The notes beneath the pieces were generated by a model. That model saw only the letters and a program-made list of their open reading frames with translations. It ran no database searches and was not told the origin of the DNA. This document shows, in pieces, positions 1-39,578 of a stretch of DNA of 39,931 nt. Position 1 is the first letter of the stretch; each line of letters opens with the position of its first letter. A program made the translations under genes and the position numbers. The stretch is taken from NCBI GenBank assembly GCA_903837075.1, contig CAILTI010000010.1, forward strand, positions 1-39,931, written 5' to 3'. Source of the stretch: an uncultured bacterium. GTDB taxonomy: Bacteria > Patescibacteriota > Minisyncoccia > Phycocordibacterales > PALSA-1337.

Positions 1-127
1 CCGTCAACCCAAGGGAGTCGGTGGTGCCCGAAATCTCGCCTCGTGCGGGCCTAAGGCAAAATCGATGACAGGGGGTAAGTCGTAACAAGGCACGGGTAGC
101 GGAAGCTGCTCGTGGAATATTTCAAAG
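1..127 (+). rRNA. rrs: 3'-terminal ~127 nt of a 16S rRNA gene (helix 44 descending strand, helix 45, 3' tail). The gene starts upstream of the window.
   Basis: CCGTCA at 1-6 matches the universal 1399-1404 block. AAGTCGTAACAAGG at 77-90 matches the universal 1492 block. Helix 45 is CACGGGTAGC (91-100), GGAA loop, GCTGCTCGTG (105-114). The mature 3' end is only approximate. Confidence 0.85.
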
Positions 128-16013: not shown

Positions 16014-16087
16014 TAAATCCTAAACAAATTCTAATACCAATGTTTATCAATTTCAACCAATTGGTATTAGAATTTGTTTAGGATTTA
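16014..16087. repeat. Perfect 28-bp inverted repeat (hairpin) immediately downstream of rnc
   Basis: TAAATCCTAAACAAATTCTAATACCAAT (16014-16041) is the exact reverse complement of 16060-16087, with an 18-nt loop. Confidence 0.9.
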
Positions 16088-19100: not shown

Positions 19101-20193
19101 TGCAGAATATGATTCGTTGAGAGACATTATAGAGAAAGAAAAAGATACCAACCGCGAGGCGGAGAAAGATGTATTCAAGATCATCGCCAGGCAGAACGAA
19201 GTCAGGGCGGTCGTGAACAATCTCACAGCGTCAAAGTTGACCGTAGGCCATGAGGAAGAAGCTTTCAAGAGGGAGATGGGTGAAGCTCATATGTTGGTTG
19301 GTCGCGATGCAGTGAATTGGGTTCCGATGGACATCATGTCCGTCGGATCCGTATCTGTTTCAACTAGACAACAGCAGGAGGAGCGCCGCAAGAAGATCGA
19401 GCGCAACAAAGTACGCCTGGAAGACTCTGGTGGCAGTGGTGGTGCAGAAGTTATGAAAGAATTTCGCGAGACAGAAGAGCGCGACGCTTTTTTGGCGAAG
19501 GAGTTGGAGGATCTGAAGAAGGCCGGAGAAGAACTCAGGAAACTGACGACCGAACTCGATGCACGAATAGATATGGAATTCAAAACGGGAATATTGAAGA
19601 TAAATAGCGAATTCAAGAAATACTTTTCTCTGATGTTCGGTGGCGGACACGCGGAGTTGACTGTCGTCAGAGAAGTTAGGCGCAAGAGGAAGGGCGATAT
19701 GGATGATCTCAGTGGACTGCTGAGAGGTGAGAGCGATGGAATGTTATCAGGAGAAATGTCAGCCCGCTTGGAAGGAGAAAGCTACTCCTCCCAAAAGGGA
19801 GCGATCGTTAATAATGAAAGTAATGAAGAACTATTGCCCGAAGGCTTGGACGTCAACGTCAGTCTCCCGAGGAAGAAGATCAAAGGCTTGATGATGCTCT
19901 CTGGCGGAGAGAGGGCACTGACGTCGATCGCTTTACTTTTCGCGATCTCTCAGGTAAATCCTCCACCATTCGTCATACTCGATGAAACAGATGCGGCACT
20001 AGACGAGGCAAATTCACGCAAGTATGGAGACATGATCGCAGATCTTTCGGAACATTCACAACTCATCCTGATCACGCACAATAGGGAAACCATGTCTCGT
20101 GCTGGAGTACTCTATGGCATAACGATGGGATCTGACGGTGCTTCACGACTGCTCTCTATCCAATTCGAAGAGGCGGTCAAAGTAGCGAAGTGA
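16141..20193 (+). CDS. smc: SMC-type chromosome condensation ATPase, interrupted by an intein. The spliced product would be about 788 aa.
   Basis: The N terminus is LEISGFKSFA..GIVGPNGSGK. After the intein come SNVAEAFRFVLGEQS, long coiled coils, the C-terminal signature LSGGERALTSIALLFAI, and Walker B PFVILDETDAALD. Confidence 0.9.
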   Translation: MHLKSLEISGFKSFAKKANLEFNTPITGIVGPNGSGKCVDGGTLVQLEDGSIKPIKELFDMAQSRARAVTMFDDGMAVIDTNVSFNVAALNLYTLKTDWRHVTAFVRRTAPEKMLEINTRSGRTITATPYHPLFGCENGTVHSVRADAVKTGLRIATPRSLPVVGRMQRIMMKDVAAAFKPEDNVYVPYSPILEELMDLRMIEKSVTTTRALERVSGVEECVFARVRMSQAMPVTYLPALCGPYIYTFGNRTLKSKGEGTMKIPEYIDEEVARFLGYIIAEGRTSRNGQVWYVNDDPASVADYVSCVRKCFGLEAKVFSYKGDTKDVITFSITLARVLDKIFGMTIEGPSRTKKVPPQIFQSRDHVVEAFLGALYDGDGHFSFKISKSKGNRQAYIEYTSASEELARGVSTLLLRLGILSDIQKKEKCATNTIKKTVRPYWSVYVYGNANIRRFVERIQPKGRKSATVRAMLDMEANQGNPNHDLIPGIIEPLHELIKEAGVSVKKARKENSTLAAYYERRCLPSRGGVDRVIDYLESIVPESNTAWRQCANELRKFASSDVLWDEIVSVREIPSGEYVYDLTVDEDHNFIANNIFAHNSNVAEAFRFVLGEQSIKSLRGKRGEDMIWNGGGETSGGSGKGNRASVKLTFDNSRKIFSSIDFDEVVIERVVHRDNANEYLLNGSQVRLKDIIELLATAHIGASGHHIISQGEADRILSASIRERREMVEDALGLKLYQWKKLESLHKLERTEENMKQVESLRREIAPHIRFLKKQVEKVEKAEELRKELIVLYQEYFASEEYYLNSEKSRLVKALSGPQQELSDLDRALENAKKIITDSKFKDSKSDAVISVENRLAKVRADKDSVVRELGRIEGEISANRRAIEKEHSRMQDEESKTVYLRDVEEVVRNIERLNDSKIEGLDTAEKARNFFLEIISSLKSFITKNRSTHESSFIGDAEKEIANLTEKKVASDATLQALSRDEVQFRAEYDSLRDIIEKEKDTNREAEKDVFKIIARQNEVRAVVNNLTASKLTVGHEEEAFKREMGEAHMLVGRDAVNWVPMDIMSVGSVSVSTRQQQEERRKKIERNKVRLEDSGGSGGAEVMKEFRETEERDAFLAKELEDLKKAGEELRKLTTELDARIDMEFKTGILKINSEFKKYFSLMFGGGHAELTVVREVRRKRKGDMDDLSGLLRGESDGMLSGEMSARLEGESYSSQKGAIVNNESNEELLPEGLDVNVSLPRKKIKGLMMLSGGERALTSIALLFAISQVNPPPFVILDETDAALDEANSRKYGDMIADLSEHSQLILITHNRETMSRAGVLYGITMGSDGASRLLSIQFEEAVKVAK
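16252..17937 (+). mobile_element. Full-length intein (562 aa) with a LAGLIDADG homing endonuclease domain, inserted in the SMC Walker A loop
   Basis: It starts with Cys (GSGK|CVDGGTLV). Block B is TATPYHPLF. The LAGLIDADG motifs are FLGYIIAEGRTS and FLGALYDGDGHFS. It ends ...VYDLTVDEDHNFIANNIFAHN|S with Ser at +1, and removing it restores GPNGSGKS. Confidence 0.9.
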
Positions 20194-28797: not shown

Positions 28798-29988
28798 ATG
28801 GCAACAGCAGAATTCAATCGCACAAAGCCCCATGTAAACGTGGGTACTATCGGTCACATCGACCACGGGAAGTCAACATTGACGGCCGCTATTTTGGCAG
28901 TTCAGTCAAAGAAGGGTCTAGCCAATGTCAAAGCTTACGCAGACATTACCAAGGGAGGTACAGTTCGTGATGCGACAAAGACCGTAACTATTTCTCTATC
29001 TCACGTAGAGTATGAGACAGCTACTCGTCACTATGCCCACATCGACTGTCCAGGACACGCCGACTTCATCAAGAACATGATCACTGGTGCCGCTCAGATG
29101 GACGGTGCTATCCTCGTCGTATCAGCAACAGATGGAGTGATGCCTCAGACACGTGAACACGTACTTTTGGCTTACCAGGTTGGTGTTCCAAAGATCGTAG
29201 TTTTTCTAAACAAGTGTGACCTCGTTCCAGAGCAGGATCTCATCGATCTAGTCGAGGAAGAGGTTCGTGAACTTCTAACAAAGAACAAATTTGATGGCAA
29301 GAATGTCCCGATCGTCCGCGGTTCAGCTTCCAATGCATTGAATGGCGACGCCACATGGTCACTAAAGATCGACGAGCTCATGAATGCTCTCGACACCTAT
29401 ATCCCAACTCCAGTTCGTGAAGTCGACAAGCCATTCCTCATGCCTATCGAAGACATCTTCTCTATCGAAGGACGCGGAACAGTCGTTACTGGCCGTATCG
29501 AGCGCGGTATCGTGAAGGTTGGTGAGGAATGCGAGATCATCGGATTCAAGGATACAGCCAAGACCGTTATCACAGGTATCGAGATGTTCAACAAGTCACT
29601 CAAGGAAGGTATGGCAGGTGACAACGCAGGACTACTTCTACGCGGTACAGGCAAGGATGATGTGTCACGTGGTCAAGTATTGGCCAAGCCAGGTTCAGTC
29701 AAGCCTCACACAGAGTTCGAGGCAGAAGTATACGTTTTGAAGAAAGAAGAGGGAGGTCGCCACACACCATTCTTCACTGGTTACAAGCCACAGTTCTATA
29801 TCAGAACGACGGACGTAACAGGCGAAGTAACATTGCCTGAGAAGGTTGAGATGGTCATGCCAGGTGATACAGTCACATTCAAAGTCAAACTCGTTGCCCC
29901 AGTCGCTCTCGAGGACAAGCAGCGTTTCGCAGTTCGTGAAGGCGGTAAGACAGTAGGCGCAGGAGTTGTTACGAAGGTGGTCGCGTAG
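28798..29988 (+). CDS. tuf: Elongation factor Tu
   Basis: 396 aa with [17 protein letters not shown] and NKCD. Confidence 0.98.
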
Positions 29989-30072
29989 ACAGGGACTAGT
30001 GTCTAGGGGATAGTGACTAGTAATAGCAGATAAAACTAACCACTAACAACTAGTCACTAATCACTAAATAAA

Positions 30073-30471
30073 ATGCCTAACAAAGATACAATAAATAACG
30101 AAGTAGTTTCCCAGCCTGTTGTAAAGAAGGCTCCACGCACGAGGAAACCGAAGGCCGTCGCGGAGACGCCACACCTCCGGATCCGAGTGAGAGCTTACGA
30201 ACACAAGATACTGGACTCTTCTTTGAAACAGATCATGGATACGGCCGCCAGATACGATGCGGAGATACATGGTCCAGTGCCTCTGCCAACAGAGATCAAG
30301 AAGTACACCGTTAACCGTTCCTCATTCATCGACAAGAATTCCAGAGAGCAGTTCGAGATGAGAGTACACAAGAGGCTGATAGATATAGTGAATCCAAATC
30401 CGAAAGTTATCGAAGCACTCACAAATCTAAGTCTGCCGTCAGGAGTGAATATCGATGTGAAGATGATGTAA
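30073..30471 (+). CDS. rpsJ: 30S ribosomal protein S10 (with a ~30-aa basic N-terminal extension)
   Basis: LRIRVRAYEHKILD...GPVPLPT... Confidence 0.93.
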   Translation: MPNKDTINNEVVSQPVVKKAPRTRKPKAVAETPHLRIRVRAYEHKILDSSLKQIMDTAARYDAEIHGPVPLPTEIKKYTVNRSSFIDKNSREQFEMRVHKRLIDIVNPNPKVIEALTNLSLPSGVNIDVKMM

Positions 30472-30612
30472 GGTTGACATACGAATCGAAGCATACAAAT
30501 ATGCGAATGGTACCAATATACGAATGTCTACGAATGTAGTAGACAACTGTTTGGTGACATTCGTATCCATTCGTTGATTCGTAAAATTCGTATATTCGTA
30601 TAACTATCCCCC

Positions 30613-31239
30613 ATGAAATTCATTTTAGGAAGAAAACTCAATATGACACAGATCTACGATGCTTCTGGCAGAGCTATTCCAGTTACAGCAGTAGAAGTCC
30701 GCGGGAACACTGTTGTTCAGATCAGAACCAAGGATGTAGATGGCTACGAGGCTGTACAGGTCGGTGAGGGAACACGCAACGTGAACCGCATCGCCAAGCC
30801 ACAGAAAGGCCATTTCAAGGACCTGGGTAATTTTGCCTCAGTCTGTGAGTTTCGTGCTACACCATATACGCTAAACCCGATGCCTTCGTTCAAAGTTGGT
30901 GACAAGGTTGAACTGGCCCAATTCAAGATCGGCGATGTCGTCGTGGTCAGTGCCACATCCAAAGGTAAAGGTTTCCAAGGTGTAGTCAAACGTCACGGAT
31001 TCCATGGAGGTCCTAGAACTCACGGTCAGAAACACTCCGAAAGGGAGCCAGGTTCGATCGGTGGAGGCTTGAGAACTCACGTACCAGTCGGTATGCGCAT
31101 GGCAGGCAGAATGGGTAGTGATCGAGTCACGGTGAAGAATCTGAAAGTCGCACATATTGACGTAGAGGATTCTGTAATGTATGTTTCTGGAGCAATACCA
31201 GGACGCCGAGGTTCGCTGGTGGAGATCGTAGGACAATAA
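30613..31239 (+). CDS. rplC: 50S ribosomal protein L3
   Basis: GRKLNMTQIYD...KGKGFQGVVKRHGF. Confidence 0.95.
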   Translation: MKFILGRKLNMTQIYDASGRAIPVTAVEVRGNTVVQIRTKDVDGYEAVQVGEGTRNVNRIAKPQKGHFKDLGNFASVCEFRATPYTLNPMPSFKVGDKVELAQFKIGDVVVVSATSKGKGFQGVVKRHGFHGGPRTHGQKHSEREPGSIGGGLRTHVPVGMRMAGRMGSDRVTVKNLKVAHIDVEDSVMYVSGAIPGRRGSLVEIVGQ

Positions 31240-31330
31240 GATTGAAAGATTGAAAATTGAGTGATTGAAAAATAGTAGTGAAAATGAATCATTCAATCCT
31301 TCAATATTCAATCATTCAATAAATAATACA

Positions 31331-32020
31331 ATGGAAGCAACAATATACAATCAAACAGGCAAACCAGTAGGAAAGACGAAACTTCCAGAAAGCATTTTTG
31401 GTGTGCCATGGAATGCAGACCTAGTTCACGAGGTTGTTAGGTTGATGAATTCCAATTCCAGGACGAATATCGCTCATACGAAGACTCGCGGAGAGGTTCG
31501 TGGTGGCGGTAAGAAGCCTTGGAAGCAGAAAGGTACTGGTAGAGCTCGTCACGGTTCCACTCGTTCTCCGATATGGGTAGGTGGAGGTGTCGCTCATGGT
31601 CCTAGGAATGACAAGAACTTTGATCGCAAGATCAACAAGAAAGCCCGAGCCAAGGCACTTTACACTATTCTTTCTCGTAAATTCAAAGAAGGCGAGATCC
31701 TATTTGTCGATAGTATGAACTTTGCAGTACCGAAAACCAAGGAAGCTATCACTATGATCAGCCAATTGGCATCTATCAAAGGATTTGAGAGGTTGTCAAC
31801 GAAGAAATCAAACACCGCCATCATCGCTCTGGATAGGAAGGTGAAGACCGTCGAGAAGAGTTTCCAAAACATTGGCAATATTTCCATAGAAGAGTTCCGC
31901 AACATCAATCCAGTTTCATTATTGAATCATGCTTTCCTCGTCGTCGTAAATCCTGAGGAATCATTGAAAGCATTGAACGCAAAGACTACGAAAGCTTCGG
32001 CTGTAGCCACAAAAAACTAA
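31331..32020 (+). CDS. rplD: 50S ribosomal protein L4
   Basis: The start is placed at ATG 31331 (MEATIYNQTGK...), since the upstream extension is just translated spacer repeat. KPWKQKGTGRARHGS is present. Confidence 0.92.
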   Translation: MEATIYNQTGKPVGKTKLPESIFGVPWNADLVHEVVRLMNSNSRTNIAHTKTRGEVRGGGKKPWKQKGTGRARHGSTRSPIWVGGGVAHGPRNDKNFDRKINKKARAKALYTILSRKFKEGEILFVDSMNFAVPKTKEAITMISQLASIKGFERLSTKKSNTAIIALDRKVKTVEKSFQNIGNISIEEFRNINPVSLLNHAFLVVVNPEESLKALNAKTTKASAVATKN

Positions 32021-32053
32021 CCCCTAATCACTATACCCTAACCCCTAACTACC

Positions 32054-32536
32054 ATGGCCATATTCGGATTCAAAAAGAGAAAAGACGACAAACTACAACA
32101 GTCAGCTGTTCAGACAAAAGCTGCGGCCGCAAAGGGCGCAAAGAAGCATGTTGTCGTCGCAAAGAAGCAGGAGTCCGAGAAGCATGAGAAGATCGTAGCA
32201 GCGGCCCCAGTCCTCATAACCAAGCCTTCCAAGGTTGTCGCAGTACCTCTCGAGAGTTTCTCCAATGTTTCGGAGGCCATCATACGACCTCGTGTTACGG
32301 AAAAGTCTGGGATACTCAGTCAGTCTGGCAGATACACATTCGAAGTCACTAGGAATGCCAACAAGCAGTCTATCGCGAATGCTGTGAACGCTCTCTACAA
32401 GGTACGACCGATCAAGGTTGCTGTGCTGAATACACCAGTCAAGAACGTCTTTGTGAAAGGTCGCCATGGAAAAGTTTCCGGTATTCGCAAGGCGATCGTG
32501 ACACTGAAGAAGGGGGAGAAGATAGATTTTGTGTAA
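32054..32536 (+). CDS. rplW: 50S ribosomal protein L23 (with a ~70-aa Lys/Ala-rich N-terminal extension)
   Basis: The C-terminal core is IIRPRVTEKS...YTFEV...KKGEKIDF. Confidence 0.88.
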   Translation: MAIFGFKKRKDDKLQQSAVQTKAAAAKGAKKHVVVAKKQESEKHEKIVAAAPVLITKPSKVVAVPLESFSNVSEAIIRPRVTEKSGILSQSGRYTFEVTRNANKQSIANAVNALYKVRPIKVAVLNTPVKNVFVKGRHGKVSGIRKAIVTLKKGEKIDFV

Positions 32537-32582
32537 TTTTCCATTTTAATTTTTCCATTTTCAATTATAATAATTAACTACA

Positions 32583-33437
32583 ATGAAGACTTACAGGCCA
32601 ACAAGCAAATCACGCCGACACATGACAGTCCTGCCATTCAAGGACTATGTCACTGTGAGCGAACCACACAAGGCTCTCACCGTCGGTTTTAAGCGCGACA
32701 TGGGACGCAATGCATTTGGTCGTATCACTGTTCGACACAAGGGAGGAGGTCACAAGAAGCTCTATCGTATGATCGACTTTATATATGACAAGAAGGACCA
32801 GATCGCAACAGTCAAGACTGTAGAATATGATCCATTCCGCACTGGTTACATCGGTATTGTGAATTACAAGGATGGAACGAAGCGTTACGTTTTGCTACCA
32901 AAGACGATGAAAGTCGGCAATTCATTCATCGTTTCAGAAAACGCACCTATCGAAACAGGCAATCGTCTACCTCTCAAAAAGATCCCAGTTGGTACATACA
33001 TTTTCAATGTCGAAGTAAAGCCAGGTAGTGGTGCAAAGCTCGTCCGTTCTGCCGGTTCATTCGGTCAGGTAGTTGCCAATGACGCTGGATATACACATAT
33101 CAAGATGCCTTCCACGGAAGTTCGCAAGATCCACGAAGATGCCTGGGCTTCTATAGGTGCAGTTTCGAACGAAGAGAATCGCCTAGTCAATATCGGTAAA
33201 GCTGGTCGTTCACGCTGGATGGGTATCCGCCCTACAGTTCGCGGTTCTGCTCAGAACCCAGTTGACCACCCATACGGTGGAGGTGAACAGAGGTCTGGTC
33301 GCGGTCTACGAAGACTAAAGACTCGCTGGGGCAAACCAGCAGGTAAAGGTCAGAAGACTCGCCGTCCAAAGAAATATTCGAACGTTTTCGTCGTTTCTCG
33401 TCGTATTCCTGGAAAGAATATGACAGCAGCTAGTTAG
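32583..33437 (+). CDS. rplB: 50S ribosomal protein L2
   Basis: GGGHKKLYR...NPVDHPYGGGE. Confidence 0.96.
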   Translation: MKTYRPTSKSRRHMTVLPFKDYVTVSEPHKALTVGFKRDMGRNAFGRITVRHKGGGHKKLYRMIDFIYDKKDQIATVKTVEYDPFRTGYIGIVNYKDGTKRYVLLPKTMKVGNSFIVSENAPIETGNRLPLKKIPVGTYIFNVEVKPGSGAKLVRSAGSFGQVVANDAGYTHIKMPSTEVRKIHEDAWASIGAVSNEENRLVNIGKAGRSRWMGIRPTVRGSAQNPVDHPYGGGEQRSGRGLRRLKTRWGKPAGKGQKTRRPKKYSNVFVVSRRIPGKNMTAAS

Positions 33438-33593
33438 TTGCGAGGATTTAGGGTTTAGTAGGCGCGATTTCTATACCCTATACCCTAGCCCCTAGAACCT
33501 AACCCATAATCTAGATGTACAAACTATTTGTAAAAATAGGCAAGAGCACGATCGTATTCATGATGACATTGATCCAGGGCAAGTGAGAGTCGC

Positions 33594-34394
33594 TCATTTG
33601 CCCTTTGCGAGTGGTAGTGTGACAGTACAGGTTGTACCGGTGCCTGCACCTGCAGAATAGACATCGATACGGCCGCCTAGTCGTTTCAATATAGATCTAG
33701 TCAGATATAGACTCACACCGAAGCCTTCGGTATCCATACGGGAGGCATTCTTGGCGCGGAAGAATTTCGTGAATATATGTGACTGATCAGCATTCTCGAT
33801 GCCGATACCGTTGTCCTTGACGACGAATACAGCCTTGTTCTTGACCTTCCCGACGGCTACATCTACGTTCTTGCCTGGGCTGCTGTATATGAGAGCGTTT
33901 TCGAGTAATGACTGAATAACGAATTCGAGCTGGTTCTTGTCGACGTTGACGAGAACATCCTCTGATTCGCATGAAATCGAAATAAAGAGATTTTTCATGT
34001 GGAAATCTTCTTTCAGAGAGTCGACCATATTCTTGACTGATTCGAAGAGAGGGTAAATCTTGAAATCATATATCTGTGTCGACGCGTCATCTGATCCGGC
34101 CAGTTCTATCAATGTCCCCATTAGGTCAACCAGCAGTTTGTTTGAATGCTGGATGTCTAGGAGTTTCTCTTTCTTGAATGAATTGGTCTCACTTTGTGCG
34201 AGTTCATCAGATGTCCATTTGATATGCGTCAAAGGTGTACGGAACTTGTGAGCTACTATCGTGATGAATTCATTCTTTAGTTTTTCGTTCTCATTCATTT
34301 TTACCCAGTATTTACGGAGCGTGATGAATATAATTGATAAAATGATGACGACCACTACGGCCGTTTCGACTATCTGTATAGTTTCTGTGTCCAT
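33594..34394 (-). CDS. Minimal membrane-anchored histidine kinase (one TM, HisKA, HATPase_c), with no adjacent response regulator
   Basis: The H box is AHKFRTPLTHI, the N box LLENALIYS, G1 VKDNGIGI, F box FTKFFRA, and G2 GFGVSLYL. TATAAT (34406-34401 on the minus strand) lies 6 nt before the ATG. Confidence 0.88.
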   Translation of the reverse strand: MDTETIQIVETAVVVVIILSIIFITLRKYWVKMNENEKLKNEFITIVAHKFRTPLTHIKWTSDELAQSETNSFKKEKLLDIQHSNKLLVDLMGTLIELAGSDDASTQIYDFKIYPLFESVKNMVDSLKEDFHMKNLFISISCESEDVLVNVDKNQLEFVIQSLLENALIYSSPGKNVDVAVGKVKNKAVFVVKDNGIGIENADQSHIFTKFFRAKNASRMDTEGFGVSLYLTRSILKRLGGRIDVYSAGAGTGTTCTVTLPLAKGK

Positions 34395-34461
34395 GAGTGG
34401 ATTATATCATGACAGGGAATAGGTGTCGTCATTTAATTTATATAAATGCTATAATTGGTGC

Positions 34462-34896
34462 ATGTCTAGTAAAGTATCTACGGTAGACCGCTTACAGAAA
34501 GCTGGCTCGTTCAAGATGTGGCGAATAATAGTCAATTTCTGGACTCTGATATTTTTTACGGCGATCATCTTTGATTTCTATAATGACAACATGTTGTCGA
34601 AGGATGAGATCCTCCTCGGAGTTGCGGGGATATATGCTGCTGCCTTGGCTATATATAGTGCAGAGAAGGAATTTCGTCGTTGGCATCACATGCACAAATC
34701 TCTACATCCTGGTGAGCTTTACGTTATCATCTGGACCATCCTGATGCTGTTTCTCATCGTCGGCCCTGGTATATATGGATACTCGTATCATCTCCCATCT
34801 GAAGTCAGCGCTTCCTATATCGCTATGGTCAGTATCCTGGCCATTACTCGAGAATCCAAGAATTTTTACAAGAGAAAGGGGAAGATGAAGAGGTGA
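34462..34896 (+). CDS. Integral membrane protein (3-4 TM helices), function unknown
   Basis: The start is placed at ATG 34462, 6 nt after TATAAT (34450-55). The alternative is GTG 34423. TM segments include IIVNFWTLIFFTAIIFDF and LYVIIWTILMLFLIVG. Confidence 0.55.
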   Translation: MSSKVSTVDRLQKAGSFKMWRIIVNFWTLIFFTAIIFDFYNDNMLSKDEILLGVAGIYAAALAIYSAEKEFRRWHHMHKSLHPGELYVIIWTILMLFLIVGPGIYGYSYHLPSEVSASYIAMVSILAITRESKNFYKRKGKMKR

Positions 34897-34909
34897 TATC
34901 TAGCAACAC

Positions 34910-34938
34910 TTGACTTCAAACGGCGGCTCTGTTAACAT
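34910..34938 (+). promoter_or_regulatory. Putative internal promoter restarting the ribosomal protein operon at rpsS
   Basis: TTGACT (34910-15), 17-nt spacer, TAACAT (34933-38). Confidence 0.45.
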
Positions 34939-35044
34939 GGCTCATGAGCTCACAGGGGCTTATTTTATTCTAACAAGCGAGGATATTTGGTAGTTTACAG
35001 ACACAAAGTCCGAGTCAAAGCTAGAAATAACCCATTTCATTTTT

Positions 35045-35395
35045 ATGTCACGATCACTAAAGAAAGGTCCATATATCGAAGAGCGATTGCTAAGAAAGAT
35101 CGAGGGCAAAAAGCCTGCAACAGCTGGAACGATAAAGACATGGTCACGCCGATCACAGATTTCCCCAGAGATGGTTGGTTTCACTTTTGGCGTCCACAAC
35201 GGAAAGATACATGTGGACGTTTTCGTAACTGAGGACATGGTAGGACATCGCCTCGGTGAATTCTCACCTACACGCAAGTTCGTGCGCCATGGAGGTAAGA
35301 TGCAAAAGGAACTCGAAATGAAGGCCAAGGAAGCTGAGATGAATGCCGCCAAGTCCGCTAAGGAAGCTGCTACGACAGCCGTCGCAAAGAAGTAA
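35045..35395 (+). CDS. rpsS: 30S ribosomal protein S19 (with a ~25-aa C-terminal extension)
   Basis: [11 protein letters not shown]...TWSRRS...[21 protein letters not shown]. Confidence 0.95.
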
Positions 35396-35400
35396 TCTTT

Positions 35401-35440
35401 CAATCATTCAATCATTCAATCATTCAATCATTCAATTATC
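35401..35440 (+). repeat. Tandem 8-mer repeat (CAATCATT x4 plus one variant) in the rpsS-rplV spacer
   Basis: Direct reading: caatcatt caatcatt caatcatt caatcatt caattatc. Confidence 0.95.
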
Positions 35441-35447
35441 TATTCCC

Positions 35448-35840
35448 ATGATCACCGCCTCACTAAAAAATTACAGAATCTCTCCTCGCAAGGTCCGATT
35501 GGTCGCAAATATGATCCGCGGCAAGAGTGTTGTCCAGGCGGAAACTATCCTAGTCGGCGTAGTCAAGAAAGCTACGAGCCCTCTAGGTGACTTGCTCGCA
35601 TCAGCTGTCGCCAACGCTTCACATAACCACAAGATCGAGAAAGCGACCCTTTTTGTAAAGGAGATCCGTGTGGATCAGGGTTTCGTCTTGAAGCGCAGTC
35701 AGCCAATGGCGCGTGGATCAGCGTATCCGATAAAGAAGAGGACGAGTCACGTAACGATCATATTGGCACCGATAGAGGTGAAGGCAAAGAAGCAGGGAGT
35801 AAGAGGCAAGAAGACGGCAGTTAAGGCTGCAAAAAATTAA
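35448..35840 (+). CDS. rplV: 50S ribosomal protein L22
   Basis: The start is placed at ATG 35448 (MITASLKNYRISPRKVRLVANMIRGK). Confidence 0.93.
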   Translation: MITASLKNYRISPRKVRLVANMIRGKSVVQAETILVGVVKKATSPLGDLLASAVANASHNHKIEKATLFVKEIRVDQGFVLKRSQPMARGSAYPIKKRTSHVTIILAPIEVKAKKQGVRGKKTAVKAAKN

Positions 35841-35880
35841 TCATTCAATTTTCAATCTTTCAATCATTTAATCAACCACC

Positions 35881-36552
35881 ATGTCCCACACCGTTCATCC
35901 ATATTCACACAGACTAGGCATCATTCGCGATTGGAAGAGTCGCTGGTTTCTAGTAGACCGATCATATCGTACGGCTCTGAAAGGTGACCTCATCATTCGT
36001 GAGTTTTTGCAGAAGGAACTTCGCGCCAATTACATCGGCGGTCTCGACATCGAGCGCAGTCAGAAGGTTTTCCGAGTGATCATCAAGACATCACGTCCTG
36101 GAATGTTGATCGGCAAATCAGGTGATGGCGTTGTAAAGCTCCGCGAGAAGATCCTAAAGATCTTGCGCAAGAACAAGGTTGAGGTAAAGGGTCAGGAACT
36201 CAAGGTTGATATCGAAGAGGTTCGCAGTCCTGAGTCCAATGCTGCTATAGCTGCCATGATGGTCGCTGAGTCATTGGAGAAGCGTCTACCATTCCGACGT
36301 GTTATGAAGCAGACCATAGAGAAAGTCATGGCAAACAGGGAAGTAAAGGGTATTCGTGTTCGTCTCGGAGGTCGCCTAGGTGGCGCTGAGATCGCTCGCA
36401 CAGAAGAGCTGAAGAAAGGTCAGATCCCACTACAGACTCTACGTGCCGACATCGATTTTGCTCGTGAGAAGGCGCATATGACATACGGTGATATCGGTAT
36501 CAAAGTTTGGATATACAAGGGAGAGATATTTAAAAAAGATCAGACTAAATGA
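35881..36552 (+). CDS. rpsC: 30S ribosomal protein S3
   Basis: VHPYSHRLGI..DW.SRWF with a KH domain and C-terminal GRLGGAEIAR. Confidence 0.95.
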   Translation: MSHTVHPYSHRLGIIRDWKSRWFLVDRSYRTALKGDLIIREFLQKELRANYIGGLDIERSQKVFRVIIKTSRPGMLIGKSGDGVVKLREKILKILRKNKVEVKGQELKVDIEEVRSPESNAAIAAMMVAESLEKRLPFRRVMKQTIEKVMANREVKGIRVRLGGRLGGAEIARTEELKKGQIPLQTLRADIDFAREKAHMTYGDIGIKVWIYKGEIFKKDQTK

Positions 36553-36628
36553 CCAATATTCAATGAACAATATTCAATATAGTCACAAAGGTTGATCATT
36601 GGACATTGGAAATTGAAAATTAACTAAA

Positions 36629-37054
36629 ATGCTATTCCCTAAAAAAGTAAAACATCGCAAGTGGTTCACGATGCGCACACATCCAGACAAGGAGATGTCG
36701 CATGCTGATACACGTGGCGTCAAGATCGCTTTTGGTTCATATGGACTCAAAGCCATGAAGTATGCACGCATCACTTCGAACCAGATCGAGGCAGCCAGAA
36801 AAGTTATGGCTCGCTATGCTACGAAATCTGGTAAAGTATGGATCCGCATTTTCCCTGATCACCCATTCACACAGAAGCCGGCCGAAGTAAAAATGGGAAA
36901 AGGAAAAGGTGATCCAGTCGGATTCATCGCCGAGGTGAAACCTGGTCGTATCATGTTCGAGATCGACGGAGTTGATGCCGCGGTTGCTGCAGAAGCTCTC
37001 CGAAAGGCAGGAACGAAGTTGCCAGTAAAAACAAAGATCGTTGCCAGAATGTAA
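36629..37054 (+). CDS. rplP: 50S ribosomal protein L16
   Basis: MLFPKKVKHRK...GKGKGDP..FIAEVKPGRIMFE. Confidence 0.95.
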   Translation: MLFPKKVKHRKWFTMRTHPDKEMSHADTRGVKIAFGSYGLKAMKYARITSNQIEAARKVMARYATKSGKVWIRIFPDHPFTQKPAEVKMGKGKGDPVGFIAEVKPGRIMFEIDGVDAAVAAEALRKAGTKLPVKTKIVARM

Positions 37055-37126
37055 TCAAAAGATTGAAAATTGAAAGACTAAAAGATTAGAAACAAGCAAT
37101 TATTCAATCATTCAATAAATACAACC

Positions 37127-37321
37127 ATGAAAATGAAAGAAATAACAACTAAAACGACCTCAGACCTGTCTAGACTCATGGCTGAAAAAAAGGAGGCCCT
37201 ACGAGCGTTCCGTTTCGGTTCTGCTGGTGCCAAGACCAAGAATGTGAAGGAAGGCCGCGGACTGAGGAAGGATATAGCGAGGATAATGACGCAACTCGCA
37301 AGTGTAAAAGGGAAAAAGTAA
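37127..37321 (+). CDS. rpmC: 50S ribosomal protein L29
   Basis: 64 aa: ..DLSRLMAEKKEALRAFRF... Operon position supports the call. Confidence 0.85.
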   Translation: MKMKEITTKTTSDLSRLMAEKKEALRAFRFGSAGAKTKNVKEGRGLRKDIARIMTQLASVKGKK

Positions 37322-37398
37322 AAGTTAATATTTGCAACATTTTCCATTTTTCATTTCAGTAGACAAATCATTGAATATCAAGTAGTATCTAAAACCAC

Positions 37399-37656
37399 AT
37401 GACAACAACAGCAACAACCGAAAAAGTAGCAAAACGCCAGACATTCTCAGGTGTCGTTTCTTCTGACAAGATGAAGGATACATGTGCCGTGGTTGTGGAG
37501 AGATATGTCAAACACACGAAGTATCACAAGTTCATGACCAAGAGGACAAAGATATTGGCCCACGACCCAGGTAATACGAAGAAGATAGGGGATAAGGCAA
37601 CAGTAGAGGCCTGCAGACCGATCTCAAAGAGAAAGGCATTCAAGGTAATTGCATAG
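37399..37656 (+). CDS. rpsQ: 30S ribosomal protein S17
   Basis: FSGVVSSDKMKDTCAVVVERYVKH.KY.K. Confidence 0.92.
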   Translation: MTTTATTEKVAKRQTFSGVVSSDKMKDTCAVVVERYVKHTKYHKFMTKRTKILAHDPGNTKKIGDKATVEACRPISKRKAFKVIA

Positions 37657-37747
37657 TCATTAAAAGATTGAAAATTGAAAAATTGAAAGACAACATAGAA
37701 AGAAAATCCTTCAATTATTCAATCTTCAATCATTCAATATAAATTCC

Positions 37748-38119
37748 ATGATCCAACCACGTACAATAGTTAAAATAGCAGACAATTCCGGAGCAAAGAT
37801 CGGACGCATTTTCAAGGTGCTCGGTGCTACGCGCAAGCGTTATGCAGAGATCGGCGAGATCGTCGTTCTGTCCGTACAGAAAGCAGAGCCTAGAAAAGCT
37901 ATCAAGAAGAAGGACGTCTTGCACGCTGTTGTCGTTCGTCAGGTCAAGCCTACACGACGTAAGGATGGTTCATATGTACGTTTCGATGAGAATGCAGTTG
38001 TCATCATCGAGAAGGACAAGAAAGAGCCGATAGCTGGACGCATCTTTGGTCCTATCCCTCGTGAAGTCGCCGAGGCTGGATTCAAAACGATCGCCTCAAA
38101 GGCATCCGAGATCGTTTAG
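37748..38119 (+). CDS. rplN: 50S ribosomal protein L14
   Basis: MIQPRTIVKIADNSGAK... Confidence 0.96.
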   Translation: MIQPRTIVKIADNSGAKIGRIFKVLGATRKRYAEIGEIVVLSVQKAEPRKAIKKKDVLHAVVVRQVKPTRRKDGSYVRFDENAVVIIEKDKKEPIAGRIFGPIPREVAEAGFKTIASKASEIV

Positions 38120-38165
38120 AGCTTTATGGACATTAAGGACTTTATAGACTTTCAACTAAATTAAC

Positions 38166-38384
38166 ATGCATATCAAAAAAGGAGATACAATCAAGATGCT
38201 TTCAGGTGATGACAAGGGCAAGACCGGCAAGGTCGCCAAGGCTTTTCCTGCAACGAACAAGATCGTTGTCGAGGGGATCAACACTGTGAAGAAGCACGAG
38301 AGAGCTCGCAAGGAAGGGCAGAAGGGGCAGACAGTCGAGGTTGCTATGCCATTCAATGCGTCGAAAGCGATGAAGACTACATAA
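38166..38384 (+). CDS. rplX: 50S ribosomal protein L24 (short form, 72 aa)
   Basis: KOW motif IKKGDTIKMLSGDDKGKTGKV. Operon position supports the call. Confidence 0.88.
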   Translation: MHIKKGDTIKMLSGDDKGKTGKVAKAFPATNKIVVEGINTVKKHERARKEGQKGQTVEVAMPFNASKAMKTT

Positions 38385-38453
38385 ATAAAAAGGGTATAGG
38401 GTTTAGTAAATAAACACTAAACCCCAGCCCCTAGCCCCTAAACCCTAACTACC

Positions 38454-39017
38454 ATGTCATATAAATCCATATACGAACTAAATAAAGATTCATTCAAGGT
38501 ACTAAAGGAACCATTGAATTTGCAGAACCCGATGCAGACTCCACGACTAGTCAAGGTGGTCATTTCTAGTGGTTTCGGATCCGTGAAGGACAAGAAAAAG
38601 ATCGAAGTTATGGCAGATAGGTTGGCTCGTATCACTGGTCAGAAGCCAGCTGTCCGTGTCACCAAGAAGGCTATCGCAACATTCAAGACTCGTGTTGGTG
38701 ATCCGATCGGCTACCAGATCACTCTACGCGGCAAGCGCATGTGTGAGTTCCTCGATCGCCTAGTTCACATCTCACTTCCTCGTACCAAGGACTTCCGTGG
38801 ACTCTCTCGTACGTCTGTTGACGCTATGGGTAACTACACGATGGGTATAAAAGAACACACTATTTTTGCTGAGACATCTGACGAAGATCTCAAGGATGTT
38901 TTCGGATTTGCCATCACTATCGTCACTACTTCCAATGACAAGAAGGCCACCTTGGCTTTTCTAGAATATCTCGGTCTACCGCTCAAGAAAGAAGAAGCAA
39001 AAGGGGAGAAGAAATAG
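38454..39017 (+). CDS. rplE: 50S ribosomal protein L5
   Basis: ..NPMQTPRLVKVVIS.G.G....ITGQKP...KAIA.FK.R.G.PIG.. Confidence 0.94.
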   Translation: MSYKSIYELNKDSFKVLKEPLNLQNPMQTPRLVKVVISSGFGSVKDKKKIEVMADRLARITGQKPAVRVTKKAIATFKTRVGDPIGYQITLRGKRMCEFLDRLVHISLPRTKDFRGLSRTSVDAMGNYTMGIKEHTIFAETSDEDLKDVFGFAITIVTTSNDKKATLAFLEYLGLPLKKEEAKGEKK

Positions 39018-39115
39018 GTGATCATCAGTTAAACCGCCTACTCTAGGGTGGGTGGTGATTGATGATATTAAAATTTGGTATATAATGTACCGGATCAGTC
39101 TTTTAGTTGTACCCC

Positions 39116-39144
39116 TTGACAAGAATGGGGTAGTATGCTATACT
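39116..39144 (+). promoter_or_regulatory. Sigma-70-type promoter of a small membrane protein unit
   Basis: TTGACA (39116-21), 17-nt spacer, TATACT (39139-44). Confidence 0.6.
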
Positions 39145-39197
39145 GGTTAAGGTTCCTCATTCGGCGAGAAAAAAACAAAACAAAACAAAGTAATGTT

Positions 39198-39365
39198 ATG
39201 ACTCACCGAGTAAAACTGACGGAAAACGTCAAAACTGGGGTAATGATGATTGTAACCGCTATTATAGCGGTAATTATCATAGTAGCGTGGTTCAAGTTCT
39301 ACGTGGGTCCTAATGACCGCATGTTGCAAAGAACTTATGGTAACCACGTGTACCATCAGAATTGA
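39198..39365 (+). CDS. Small (55 aa) single-TM protein
   Basis: MTHRVKLTENVKTGVMMIVTAIIAVIIIVAWFKFY... It is bracketed by its own promoter and a strong terminator. Confidence 0.45.
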   Translation: MTHRVKLTENVKTGVMMIVTAIIAVIIIVAWFKFYVGPNDRMLQRTYGNHVYHQN

Positions 39366-39374
39366 AGTTTTCCA

Positions 39375-39410
39375 GGCACCAACATTTCAGATGTTGGTGC
39401 CGTTTCGTAT
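39375..39410 (+). terminator. Rho-independent terminator
   Basis: GGCACCAACAT / TTCAG / ATGTTGGTGCC, followed by a T-rich tail (GTTTCGTATTT). Confidence 0.75.
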
Positions 39411-39494
39411 TTCGATGTATTATCATATAGAATCTGTATGATTGAAACGAAGAGGAGTAAGGTATGTGAAGTGATCGAATGTTATTTGTAACGA

Positions 39495-39578
39495 GTCGGA
39501 GTGGTGAAATTGGCAAACACGCAGCGTTCAGAACGCTGTGAGCTCACGCTCTTGGGGGTTCAAGTCCCCCCTCCGGCA
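39495..39578 (+). tRNA. tRNA-Leu, anticodon CAG
   Basis: 84 nt: acceptor GTCGGAG/CTCCGGC (one G-U pair), anticodon arm CAGCG-TTCAGAA-CGCTG, long variable arm, T arm GGGGG-TTCAAGT-CCCCC. Confidence 0.88.

What the first reader, a model, noticed from the sequence alone, without database searches (positions are those of the whole stretch)
31307..31333. Exact 14-mers at fixed distance upstream of ribosomal protein start codons
TTCAATCATTCAAT occurs exactly at four places. At 31307-31320 it lies 10 nt before the rplD ATG. At 35423-35436 it is the last unit of the 8-mer tandem, 11 nt before rplV. At 37103-37116 it lies 10 nt before rpmC. At 37725-37738 it lies 9 nt before rplN. A close variant precedes rpsC. 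Independently, rplW and rplE share the exact start context CCCTAACTACCATG (32043-32056 and 38443-38456). Identical 14-mers at a constant 9-11 nt from the ATG of several genes are unlikely by chance. They sit where an SD would be, in an organism that seems to have none. They could be an alternative ribosome- or S1-loading element, or operator sites for autogenous control. I could not find convincing complementarity to the 16S 3' tail at 115-127.
Basis: seen in the sequence. Interest (0 to 1): 0.6.

Follow-up and report, generated by a model that had tools for sequence, protein, structure and literature searches.

The report
G-free repeat leaders before start codons
The repeated 14-letter word is real, but it is a piece of fast-changing short tandem repeats that fill the gaps between ribosomal protein genes in a tiny bacterium whose ribosome has lost the usual docking sequence; next to start codons these repeats avoid the letter G, which is a clue to how such bacteria start translation, while the word itself is not a conserved signal.

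Summary
TTCAATCATTCAAT lies 9-11 nt before the ATGs of L4, L22, L29 and L14, and 8 nt before S8 on another contig.

It is two units of an 8-nt tandem repeat. That repeat is one of at least five 7-8-nt repeat families in the spacers of this 0.73 Mb Paceibacteria ('Taylorbacteria'-like) genome. A repeat either fills a spacer that folds into nothing, or it forms the 3' arm of a hairpin running from the stop codon to about 10 nt before the ATG.

The 16S rRNA has no CCUCC anti-SD, and genes have no SD. A -10 box sits exactly 6 nt before 56 ATGs, the arrangement expected of leaderless mRNAs. Repeats beside starts are G-poor: G<C in 27 arrays, G>C in 3.

The 14-mer occurs in 0 of 297 orthologous upstream regions. 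Its copy number varies between strains, and other spacers are swapped whole. It shows no pairing with the real 16S tail.

My reading is a sequence-nonspecific, structure-free and start-codon-free leader for SD-independent initiation at internal cistrons, not an operator or an alternative SD. The function is inferred. The closest known analogue is the TAACTGA heptamer repeat class.

The parts
31307..31320 (+). The flagged exact 14-mer. It is the last two units of the 3' arm of the rplC-rplD hairpin and ends 10 nt before the L4 ATG.
   Evidence: (I3, I24)
31241..31320 (+). Stop-to-start inverted repeat. The 5' arm 31241-31269 is made of (GATTGAAA)-type units starting 1 nt after the L3 stop. The 3' arm 31292-31320 is made of G-free (TTCAATCA)-type units.
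   Evidence: I3 (29 nt, 86% complementary); (dG -23.9, z -5.5, 0 of 200 shuffles as good)
31321..31330 (+). A-rich, G-free linker between the array and the L4 ATG (start context).
35394..35436 (+). (AATCATTC) x 5.4 tandem array with no partner arm. It fills the S19-L22 spacer, which is predicted unstructured. Three units (24 nt) are missing in related strains.
   Evidence: dG 0.0; 24 left out at 35399 in X2, X6, X9
35839..35874 (+). Degenerate array of the same family before S3; G-free and unstructured.
36555..36621 (+). Same repeat family in the opposite arrangement (TTCAAT-type arm first, ATTGRA-type arm second) in the S3-L16 spacer.
   Evidence: I7; (dG -16.3)
37069..37116 (+). L16-L29 spacer hairpin; the 14-mer at 37103-37116 is its 3' arm.
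   Evidence: I21
37659..37738 (+). S17-L14 spacer hairpin; the 14-mer at 37725-37738 lies at the end of its 3' arm.
   Evidence: I2 (32 nt, 84%); (dG -17.5, z -4.0)
30493..30601 (+). S10-L3 spacer hairpin of another family (TACGAAT / ATTCGTA units). A related strain has a different 158-nt spacer here.
   Evidence: I1
29991..30066 (+). EF-Tu-S10 spacer hairpin of a third family (CTAGTGA / TCACTAA units).
   Evidence: I6, I14
32017..32056 (+). G-free (CTAACCC)-type array filling the L4-L23 spacer, ending in CCCTAACTACC before the ATG.
   Evidence: dG 0.0
32537..32582 (+). G-free (TTTTCCATTTT)-type array filling the L23-L2 spacer.
   Evidence: (dG 0.0)
33433..33505 (+). TAGGGT / ACCCTA hairpin after the L2 stop, between convergent genes. 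Related strains differ by 7-nt and 14-nt indels here.
   Evidence: I5, I10
38391..38456 (+). L24-L5 spacer: TAGGGT / ACCCTA hairpin plus a CCCTAA array, ending in CCCTAACTACC before the ATG. In related strains the whole spacer is replaced by a 32-nt TTTTCCATTTT-type tract.
   Evidence: I22
114..125 (+). 16S rRNA 3' tail after helix 45 (GGAATATTTCAA), at the place where the anti-SD normally lies.

Best explanation
SHOWN. The 14-mer is two units of an 8-nt simple tandem repeat. It is one of at least five 7-8-nt repeat families (TTCAAT, CATTTT, CCCTAA, CACTAA, ATTCGTA types). These families populate the spacers between co-directional genes, above all in the ribosomal-protein operon. The genome is from a Paceibacteria lineage that has neither an anti-SD in its 16S rRNA nor SD sequences before its genes.

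Next to a start codon almost only the G-poor orientation is found. The array stops about 2-13 nt before the ATG. There a conserved context begins: A at -6, T at -4, A at -3, C at -1, and almost no G from -7 to -1.

Some spacers hold the G-free array alone and are predicted to have no structure. Others also hold the complementary G-bearing array directly after the upstream stop codon, so the spacer folds into one hairpin bridging stop and start. The sequences turn over quickly by unit gain and loss and by whole-spacer replacement.

INFERRED. What matters is not the word. It is a leader that cannot fold on itself and holds no AUG, GUG or UUG. On such a leader the 30S subunit, perhaps through the short S1 that relatives encode, can load and take the first AUG of an internal cistron. 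Promoter-proximal genes instead appear to be leaderless.

Exact 14-mers arise from recent slippage and from copying between neighbouring spacers. In the hairpin form, a ribosome terminating on the upstream stop codon would open the base of the stem and free the 14-mer. That would couple the two cistrons. RNase III could also cut the stem.
For: Repeat nature and families.

No SD and no anti-SD:
- G is 0.07-0.14 at -12..-1 in 588 genes.
- None of the 20 relatives of the order whose 16S end was found has GGATCACCTCC after helix 45. Twenty-seven of 151 genomes of the class do.
- A passage of PMC9297842 reports the loss of the anti-SD in part of the Parcubacteria.

Leaderless arrangement: a -10-like box lies exactly 6 nt before the ATG in 56 of 534 genes.

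G-free tracts:
- A G-free run of 25 nt or more abuts the ATG in 67 of 581 genes. The C-free equivalent is 12 of 581, and the rate at 5000 random intergenic positions is 1.1%.
- Without a -10 box, such runs occur in 32 of 169 genes behind a co-directional gap of 26-150 nt, against 7 of 148 divergent genes.

Arrays:
- Density is 4.0% of co-directional spacer bases, against 1.1% in divergent and 1.8% in convergent spacers.
- Of 31 arrays ending 15 nt or less before a start, 27 have G<C and 3 have G>C.
- Arrays just after stops show no such bias (11 G<C, 16 G>C).

Structure:
- Four ribosomal-protein spacers fold to dG 0.0.
- Hairpins reach z -5.5 and z -4.0.
- Of 14 array-bearing structured spacers, 13 start 9 nt or less after the stop and 13 end 21 nt or less before the ATG.

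Start context: A-6 0.84, T-4 0.67, A-3 0.66, C-1 0.71, and G 0.03 or less from -7 to -1 (n=99).

Replacement in kind: in related strains the L24-L5 spacer is replaced by another G-free repeat tract.

Candidate factors: an S1-like ORF in 29 of 30 relatives, RNase III in the window and a cold-shock-domain protein.
Against: - No expression or binding data exist. No RNA run holds the locus.
- The arrays are dispensable. Many orthologous spacers in the same genus are 3-25 nt long with no repeat.
- By a strict criterion only 6 of 99 same-genus upstream regions carry an array, against 5 of 14 in the window.
- Arrays occur at the same low rate in Paceibacteria that keep the anti-SD (9 of 133), and some of those contain G. 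Arrays therefore cannot be a specific replacement for the lost SD.
- Those anti-SD-bearing genomes also show few SD-like motifs (5 of 133).
- A hairpin that sequesters the tract fits poorly with a simple landing-pad role.
- My gene calls are a crude ORF and codon-usage caller. Start codons outside the ribosomal-protein genes are not verified.
- S1 was not found in this 77%-complete genome itself.
Confidence: 0.5

Rival explanations
1. The arrays are non-adaptive simple-sequence repeats made by replication slippage and ectopic recombination. They have no positive role. Selection only removes copies that place G, start codons or structure next to a start codon, which leaves the observed orientation bias.
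For: - Unit-number polymorphism and whole-spacer replacement between strains.
- No conservation at orthologous sites.
- Orthologous spacers are often short and repeat-free.
- Arrays occur at 6-7% of ribosomal-protein upstream regions across the class, whether or not the anti-SD is present.
- Very long arrays lie elsewhere: 145 nt before a Mur ligase gene on C27, and 25+15 copies on C11.
- 84 of 167 arrays lie outside the spacers I called.
Against: - The genome is only 0.73 Mb, yet 40-140-nt spacers persist inside the ribosomal-protein operon.
- Array density is 2-4 times higher in co-directional spacers than in convergent or divergent ones.
- Replacement is in kind, one G-free repeat tract for another.
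- Hairpin forms span stop to start in 13 of 14 cases.
Confidence: 0.3
2. The hairpins are the functional unit and the 14-mer is merely their 3' arm. They would be RNase III processing sites that cut the polycistronic mRNA into stable single-gene pieces. Alternatively they would be coupling devices that keep the downstream start closed until the upstream cistron is translated.
For: - Stems of 13-43 pairs with z from -3 to -11.
- Structured spacers are frequent after stop codons and rarer in divergent spacers: 36 of 164 co-directional, 13 of 35 convergent, 4 of 41 divergent.
- RNase III with a dsRNA-binding domain is encoded at 15305-16006.
- Stems begin 9 nt or less after the stop in 13 of 14 cases, which I recall to be within the footprint of a terminating ribosome.
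- The three small indels seen in a related strain at 31272-31286 fall in the loop, not in the arms.
Against: - At L22 and S3 the same repeat stands alone with no partner arm, and the spacer folds to dG 0.0.
- At the same spacer, congeners have a hairpin, a lone array or a short spacer interchangeably.
- Many of the structured spacers counted are ordinary GC-rich terminator-like hairpins. Only 14 of the 36 carry arrays.
- No cleavage data exist.
Confidence: 0.2
3. TTCAATCATTCAAT would be a sequence-specific site: an alternative SD pairing with rRNA, an S1 or ribosome loading word, or an operator for a ribosomal protein. One form of the operator idea is mimicry of the 16S tail, which also reads ..UUUCAA...
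For: - Five of 8 genomic loci end 8-11 nt before ribosomal-protein ATGs.
- UUCAA is kept in the 16S tail of 19 of the 20 relatives (my reading of the printed sequences) and resembles the repeat unit in the same sense.
Against: - The word occurs in 0 of 99, 0 of 65 and 0 of 133 orthologous upstream regions. The hexamer TTCAAT occurs in only 13 of 99 same-genus regions.
- The nearest relative uses the CATTTT family across the same operon.
- Unit number varies within the population.
- There is no trough of pairing energy with the real tail before 544 starts.
- The word has the same sense as the tail, not the complement.
- Other repeat families occupy the same position before other ribosomal-protein genes.
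- No Rfam leader matches.
Confidence: 0.05

Closest known systems
TAACTGA heptamer direct repeats of marine Beggiatoaceae, some Cyanobacteria and Bacteroidetes (MacGregor 2015, PMC4679880; I read the abstract and sections 13, 16 and 23)
   Same: - Short tandem direct repeats of 2-6 units, in forward orientation, within a few nucleotides upstream of start codons.
- They overlap the place of the ribosome-binding site, and few of the genes have an SD.
- They occur inside ribosomal-protein operons.
- The downstream gene functions show no clear pattern.
- S1, Csp or Csr proteins were proposed as binders, and the function is unproven.
   Different: - Here there is not one unit but several families of 7-8 nt, none of them TAACTGA.
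- The units next to starts are G-free.
- Many arrays have a complementary partner array that makes a stop-to-start hairpin.
- The host has lost the anti-SD altogether, whereas the Beggiatoaceae keep the E. coli-type anti-SD.
- Turnover between strains is documented here.
Cyanobacterial STRR (short tandemly repeated repetitive) heptamers. This is recalled from memory (Mazel et al. 1990); no call retrieved it.
   Same: Tandem heptamers of several families in non-coding DNA, abundant and lineage-specific, with unknown function.
   Different: As far as I recall, no reported tie to start codons, to G-avoidance or to loss of the anti-SD.
SD-independent initiation on unstructured A/U-rich leaders, as in Bacteroidetes and chloroplasts.
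   Same: - No SD use and G-poor upstream regions.
- A preferred at -3 and -6.
- Start choice by local absence of structure.
   Different: - As I recall, Bacteroidetes keep the anti-SD in the rRNA; here it is gone.
- Here the unstructured leaders are often built from tandem repeats.
- Many first genes appear to be leaderless.
Intercistronic hairpins used for RNase III processing (phage T7 early region) or for translational coupling by hairpin melting (RNA phage coat-replicase). These are recalled textbook cases.
   Same: A hairpin between two cistrons whose base lies at the upstream stop codon and near the downstream start; an RNase III gene is present.
   Different: No cleavage or coupling is shown here. 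The stems are AU-rich with a mismatch at each repeat unit, and they are interchangeable with unstructured spacers.

Membership tests
Shine-Dalgarno type element (mRNA pairing with the 16S 3' tail) | Complementarity to the 3' tail of the organism's own 16S rRNA | tested here: not met
   The tail reads GGAATATTTCAA (window 114-125). The motif has the same sense as the tail. Mean duplex energy with the tail is weakest (-2.0 against -2.5 kcal/mol) at -8..+4 in 544 genes.
Shine-Dalgarno type element (mRNA pairing with the 16S 3' tail) | The same motif enriched at a fixed distance before most genes of the genome | tested here: not met
   The hexamer TTCAAT shows no sharp positional peak over all genes and is not among the 40 most enriched upstream 6-mers. 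Only 5 of 8 loci of the 14-mer lie 8-11 nt before a start.
Ribosomal-protein autoregulatory leader or operator | Match to a described leader family | tested here: not met
   Rfam at gathering thresholds over the window finds only the rRNA end and tRNAs. An E<=1 search of 29900-39500 gives one sub-threshold miRNA-model hit on the hairpin.
Ribosomal-protein autoregulatory leader or operator | Conservation of sequence or structure at the orthologous site in relatives | tested here: not met
   The 14-mer occurs in 0 of 99, 0 of 65 and 0 of 133 orthologous regions. Relatives with 96-97% identical L2 have other elements at the rplC-rplD spacer.
Heptamer direct repeats abutting start codons (TAACTGA class, PMC4679880) | Tandem direct repeats of a 7-nt unit, 2-6 copies, in intergenic DNA | tested here: met
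   TRF finds period 7 most common (112 arrays) and period 8 in 51. After merging there are 167 arrays of period 6-9 with at least 2.5 copies. The flagged array has period 8.
Heptamer direct repeats abutting start codons (TAACTGA class, PMC4679880) | Forward orientation within several nucleotides upstream of start codons, without an SD, including sites internal to ribosomal-protein operons | tested here: met
   31 arrays end 15 nt or less before a start, 27 of them with G<C. Nine ribosomal-protein spacers of the window hold arrays. No SD is present.
Heptamer direct repeats abutting start codons (TAACTGA class, PMC4679880) | Unit sequence TAACTGA | tested here: not met
   The units next to starts are AATCATTC, ATTTTAC, ACTAACC, TAAACCC, ATTCGTAT and others. 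None is TAACTGA.
REP / MITE-like palindromic mobile element | Many near-identical full-length copies with conserved ends | tested here: inconclusive
   Imperfect palindromes are present, but arms and loops differ between copies of one family (31241-31320 against 37659-37738). No conserved termini were seen. An associated transposase was not searched for.
Intrinsic transcription terminator | GC-rich stem followed by a run of T | tested here: not met
   The consensus scan of 29900-39100 lists none at the TTCAAT hairpins. Counts are 9 found against 7.2 expected. The stems are AU-rich and are followed by A-rich linkers.
Rho utilisation (rut) site: C-rich, G-poor unstructured RNA | Presence of Rho factor in the lineage | tested here: not met
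   The Rho RNA-binding domain PF07497 was found in 0 of 31 genomes (25 of them at least 90% complete). The same search hit 9 of 14 control genomes.
RNase III processing hairpin | dsRNA stem of about two helical turns, and RNase III encoded | tested here: met
   Stems have 13-43 pairs. RNase III with a dsrm domain lies at 15305-16006.
RNase III processing hairpin | Staggered cleavage in the stem in vivo | not testable with these tools
   No RNA run holds the locus, and the one read-laying run showed DNA contigs only.

The most novel reading that the evidence does not exclude
In Paceibacteria that have lost the anti-SD, the tandem 7-8-mers would be a working part of translation. G-free arrays would be the ribosome or S1 landing pads that replace the SD at internal cistrons. 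The complementary arm after the upstream stop codon would make loading conditional on upstream translation or on RNase III cutting. Slippage in unit number would act as a fast-evolving dial that retunes ribosomal-protein and RNA-polymerase output between strains.
Probability: 0.15. Interest if true: 0.7.

Novelty: new variant of a known kind. Interest (0 to 1): 0.5.

Why it matters
It is published that part of the Parcubacteria has lost the anti-SD (passage of PMC9297842). How these bacteria then choose start codons is left open there.

This window gives a concrete and testable picture:
- a -10 box 6 nt before the ATG at first genes, implying leaderless mRNAs;
- a conserved A-6/A-3/C-1 context with no G;
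- long G-free, repeat-built leaders or stop-to-start hairpins at internal cistrons.

The work also extends the unexplained TAACTGA-type 'repeats in front of start codons' class to the candidate phyla radiation. It shows these spacers to be the fastest-changing part of an otherwise conserved ribosomal-protein operon.

For annotation there is a practical lesson: SD-based start prediction will fail in these genomes.

Tried and rejected
- Alternative-SD pairing. Sliding 12-nt duplex energies of 544 upstream regions against the real 16S tail and against the canonical anti-SD show no trough before starts. Rejected.
- Known RNA families. Rfam at gathering thresholds and at E<=1 over the operon gave nothing relevant.
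- Rho rut sites. Rejected, because Rho was not found in any of 31 genomes.
- Internal promoters in the TTCAAT spacers. The consensus scan gives 21 promoter-like sites against 15.6 +/- 4.1 expected. The only one in such a spacer is a weak 9-of-12 match inside the rplC-rplD hairpin. Not supported.
- Intrinsic terminators. Not supported.
- Arrays as a specific compensation for anti-SD loss. Weakened, because arrays occur at 6-7% of ribosomal-protein upstream regions in both anti-SD-less and anti-SD-bearing Paceibacteria. Only the G-versus-C skew is stronger in this genus. G/(G+C) is 0.10 in the window, 0.17-0.39 in 8 congeners, 0.24-0.58 in 6 other families of the order and 0.29-0.76 in 10 anti-SD-bearing genomes. 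Kin are not independent.
- Highly expressed genes only. Not supported. Long G-free repeat leaders also precede TrpRS, CysRS, a Mur ligase, a sugar-phosphate isomerase, an exonuclease-like gene, ClpB, a solute-binding protein and a pilin-like gene.
- Expression data. No RNA holder is listed for the locus. The laid runs were DNA contigs.
- S1 in this genome. Only two single S1-domain hits were found. The genome is 77% complete, so nothing follows from this. Relatives have an S1-like ORF.
- DNA-uptake-sequence and integron attC readings were considered from memory and dropped without a test. The repeats belong to several families, are tandem, and sit in core operons.
- Literature. Searches found no paper describing such repeats in the candidate phyla radiation. 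In one search none of the 15 listed papers held 'heptamer', 'heptanucleotide' or 'intergenic repeat'. One search was uninformative.
- Supplements were closed. The supplementary tables of PMC9297842 (which lineages lack the anti-SD) and of PMC4679880 (repeat lists) were not seen and may bear on the comparison.
- The papers 10.1101/755876, PMC4692102 and PMC12721329 were seen as search listings only.
Full report
**What is there.** One search finds the exact word TTCAATCATTCAAT at 31307, 35399, 35407, 35415, 35423, 37103 and 37725. All are on the + strand. With up to two mismatches there are 19 matches, where 0.68 are expected. The last copy at each locus ends 10, 11, 10 and 9 nt before an ATG. 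A one-mismatch copy ends 8 nt before a fifth ATG. Pfam identifies the five genes as L4, L22, L29, L14 and S3, inside an S10-spc type operon running from EF-Tu to L5. The second word, CCCTAACTACCATG, is exact before L23 and L5.

**What the word is part of.** TRF reads the sites as tandem arrays of an 8-nt unit (AATCATTC), with 2.5 to 5.4 copies. At three spacers a complementary array of GATTGAAA-type units lies directly after the upstream stop codon. These are L3-L4, L16-L29 and S17-L14. Each of these spacers folds into one hairpin (I3, I21, I2, dG -23.9, z -5.5, dG -17.5, z -4.0). At S19-L22 and L22-S3 the G-free array stands alone, and the spacer is predicted to have no structure at all (dG 0.0).

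The other spacers of the operon have the same architecture but use other units:
- TACGAAT/ATTCGTA (S10-L3)
- CTAGTGA/TCACTAA (EF-Tu-S10)
- TAGGGT/ACCCTA (after L2, and L24-L5)
- CCCTAAC alone (L4-L23)
- TTTTCCATTTT alone (L23-L2)

The flagged word is thus one instance of a general feature.

**The organism.** The window is contig C10 of a 730,388-base, 60-contig genome with 45% GC and 77% completeness. The most similar public records are titled Candidatus Taylorbacteria, Paceibacterota or Parcubacteria.

The window begins with the last 127 bases of a 16S rRNA. After helix 45 it reads GGAATATTTCAA where the anti-SD should be. None of the 20 relatives of the order whose 16S end was found has GGATCACCTCC there, and 19 keep ..TTCAA. 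In a draw of 151 genomes of the class, 27 do have the canonical end; a missing match there can also mean an unassembled rRNA. A passage of Tsurumaki et al. 2022 (PMC9297842) already reports that the anti-SD motif is detected in only 48% of Parcubacteria. The loss itself is therefore known.

**How genes start here.**
- Before 588 ORF starts, G falls to 0.07-0.14 from -12 to -1, and A is enriched.
- SD-like 4-mers precede 0 of 14 ribosomal-protein genes in the window and 2 of 99 in eight congeners.
- A TATAAT-like box lies exactly 6 nt before the ATG in 56 of 534 genes, and 7-9 nt before it in 50 more (TATAAT is the most enriched upstream 6-mer). That is the arrangement expected if transcription starts on the A of the ATG. 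I infer leaderless mRNAs; this is not shown.
- Before ribosomal-protein genes of the genus (n=99) the context is A-6 0.84, T-4 0.67, A-3 0.66, C-1 0.71, with G at 0.03 or less from -7 to -1.
- Pairing energy with the real 16S tail, and with the canonical anti-SD, is weakest around starts, not strongest.

**The constraint is G-avoidance, not a word.**
- A G-free run of at least 25 nt abuts the ATG in 67 of 581 genes. The figure is 12 of 581 for C-free runs, and 1.1% at random intergenic positions.
- Such runs without a -10 box are concentrated behind co-directional gaps of 26-150 nt (32 of 169) rather than at divergent genes (7 of 148).
- There are 167 arrays of period 6-9 with at least 2.5 copies. 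Of these, 83 lie in spacers I called. They cover 4.0% of co-directional spacer bases, against 1.1% of divergent and 1.8% of convergent spacer bases.
- Of 31 arrays ending within 15 nt of a start, 27 have G<C, 3 have G>C, and 25 have at most one G.
- Arrays just after stop codons show no such bias: 16 have G>C and 11 have G<C.
- A G-free tract cannot hold AUG, GUG or UUG and cannot form G-C or G-U pairs with itself. This follows from base-pairing rules.

The arrays stop 2-13 nt before the ATG, where the conserved context begins. That explains the 'fixed distance'.

**The word is not conserved.**
- The 14-mer occurs in none of 99 same-genus, 65 same-order and 133 same-class orthologous upstream regions.
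- The nearest relative (L2 94% identical) uses CATTTT-type tracts across the same operon.
- Records with 96-97% identical L2 have, at the L3-L4 spacer, a different hairpin family or a 24-nt spacer.
- Among 78 L2 upstream regions the spacer runs from about 3 to over 60 nt. It is G-free for at least 20 nt in 26 of them.
- Contigs of four lake and freshwater DNA runs show related strains differing in four places. Three units (24 nt) are missing at 35399, in three of the four runs. There are 7-nt and 14-nt unit indels at 33470-33483. The whole L24-L5 spacer is replaced by a 32-nt TTTTCCATTTT-type tract. The S10-L3 spacer is replaced by 158 other letters.
- Within the genome, L4 and L29 share 19 letters, and L14 and S8 share 20 letters, up to the ATG-proximal linker. 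This suggests copying between spacers.

**The hairpins.** Structured spacers (z < -3 against mononucleotide shuffles) make up 36 of 164 co-directional, 13 of 35 convergent and 4 of 41 divergent spacers. Fourteen of the 36 hold arrays, and nine of those are in this window. In 13 of the 14 the stem starts at most 9 nt after the stop. In 13 of the 14 it ends at most 21 nt before the ATG. As I recall the footprint of a terminating ribosome, it would melt the base of such a stem and so free the 14-mer. That would be classical coupling by hairpin opening. RNase III, encoded at 15305-16006, could also cut it. Neither is shown. Lone arrays and short spacers replace hairpins at the same sites in relatives.

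**Limits of the landing-pad reading.** Ten Paceibacteria that keep the anti-SD also show few SD-like motifs before ribosomal-protein genes (5 of 133). They carry arrays at a similar rate (9 of 133, against 6 of 99 and 4 of 65), and some of their arrays contain G. Arrays are therefore a class-wide habit and not a substitute for the SD. What is specific to this genus is the G-against-C skew before starts (related genomes are not independent). The window is unusually rich in arrays (5 of 14).

My gene starts outside the ribosomal-protein genes come from a crude caller that takes the first ATG of codon-usage-scored ORFs. Choosing the first ATG slightly favours ATG-free upstream sequence, but that cannot produce a tenfold excess over random positions.

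**Candidate factors and exclusions.**
- Twenty-nine of 30 relatives encode an S1-like ORF matching about 330 positions of the rpsA model, below its cut-off. In this incomplete genome only single S1 domains were seen.
- A cold-shock-domain protein is present.
- Rho was found in none of 31 genomes, which removes the rut-site reading.
- No Rfam family, terminator or convincing internal promoter fits.

**Comparison and verdict.** The nearest described thing is the TAACTGA heptamer direct-repeat class of Beggiatoaceae, Cyanobacteria and Bacteroidetes (PMC4679880). Those repeats are in forward orientation a few nucleotides before start codons, the genes have few SDs, and they occur inside ribosomal-protein operons. 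S1, Csp or Csr were proposed as binders and their function is unknown.

The present case shares the architecture but differs in four ways. It has several G-free unit families. It has partner arms that form stop-to-start hairpins. Its host has no anti-SD. Its turnover between strains is documented. My searches found no description of this in the candidate phyla radiation.

I file it as a new variant of a known kind. The sequence-nonspecific version is the best available explanation, at about even odds, with 'tolerated junk filtered by selection' as the main rival.

Noticed in passing
window 1-127 and 472-2949: The 16S rRNA end is followed 345 nt later by gyrA (Pfam). No tRNA or 23S follows, so the rRNA genes appear to be unlinked. 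The sequence about 50-60 nt after the 16S end (..ACTTATAGTCGAT..) is conserved across the genus.
   Followed up: partly
genome-wide; e.g. window 34426-34455: A TATAAT-like -10 box lies exactly 6 nt before the ATG in 56 of 534 genes. This suggests widespread leaderless mRNAs in this lineage.
   Followed up: partly
window 33438-35044; loci L021-L034: The S10-spc operon is interrupted between L2 and S19 by a histidine-kinase gene on the opposite strand (33594-34394) and a 144-aa ORF. In eight congeners the same junction holds 0.24 to 8.8 kb. The L3/L4 and L16/L29 junctions also carry inserts of 0.8-3.2 kb in some of them.
   Followed up: partly
window 34910-34938; L063, L069, L076, L082, L095, L097 upstream of rplD: After such inserts the operon resumes behind a conserved promoter-like module: TTGACT, 17 nt, then TAACAT/TAAGAT with TG before it. 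A short GC hairpin and a T-rich stretch follow before the ATG. This may be a restart promoter with its own leader.
   Followed up: no
window 16015-16086: A 27-28 bp perfect hairpin (dG -43, z about -8 to -11) lies directly after the RNase III gene and before SMC. It may be an RNase III target next to its own gene.
   Followed up: no
window 16141-20193: The SMC-like gene carries an intein with a LAGLIDADG domain (Pfam).
   Followed up: no
genome contigs C27 about 6961-7105, C11 4528-4812, C44 10267-10489: Very long heptamer arrays occur. A G-free run of 145 nt, mostly CACTAAT-type units, precedes a Mur ligase gene. Paired arrays of 25+15 and 13+18 copies (AGACACT/TTAGTGA) also occur, one of them at a contig end, so such arrays may break the assembly.
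   Followed up: no
genome C29 27592-27697, C5 1534-1624, C43 21791-21929; loci L061, L068, L086, L099: A different recurrent spacer element is seen in this genome and in relatives. It is a GC-rich hairpin (CCCGC..GCGGG type) followed by AATGACA.
   Followed up: no
31 genomes of the order: The Rho factor RNA-binding domain was not found in any of them, while the control search hit 9 of 14 well-known genomes.
   Followed up: yes
locus L139 (an anti-SD-bearing Paceibacteria genome): Heptamer arrays containing G (CTGTAAC x4, GCTATCA x4) lie directly before GTG or TTG starts of L22, L14 and L16 as I called them. This shows the repeat habit outside the anti-SD-less order.
   Followed up: partly
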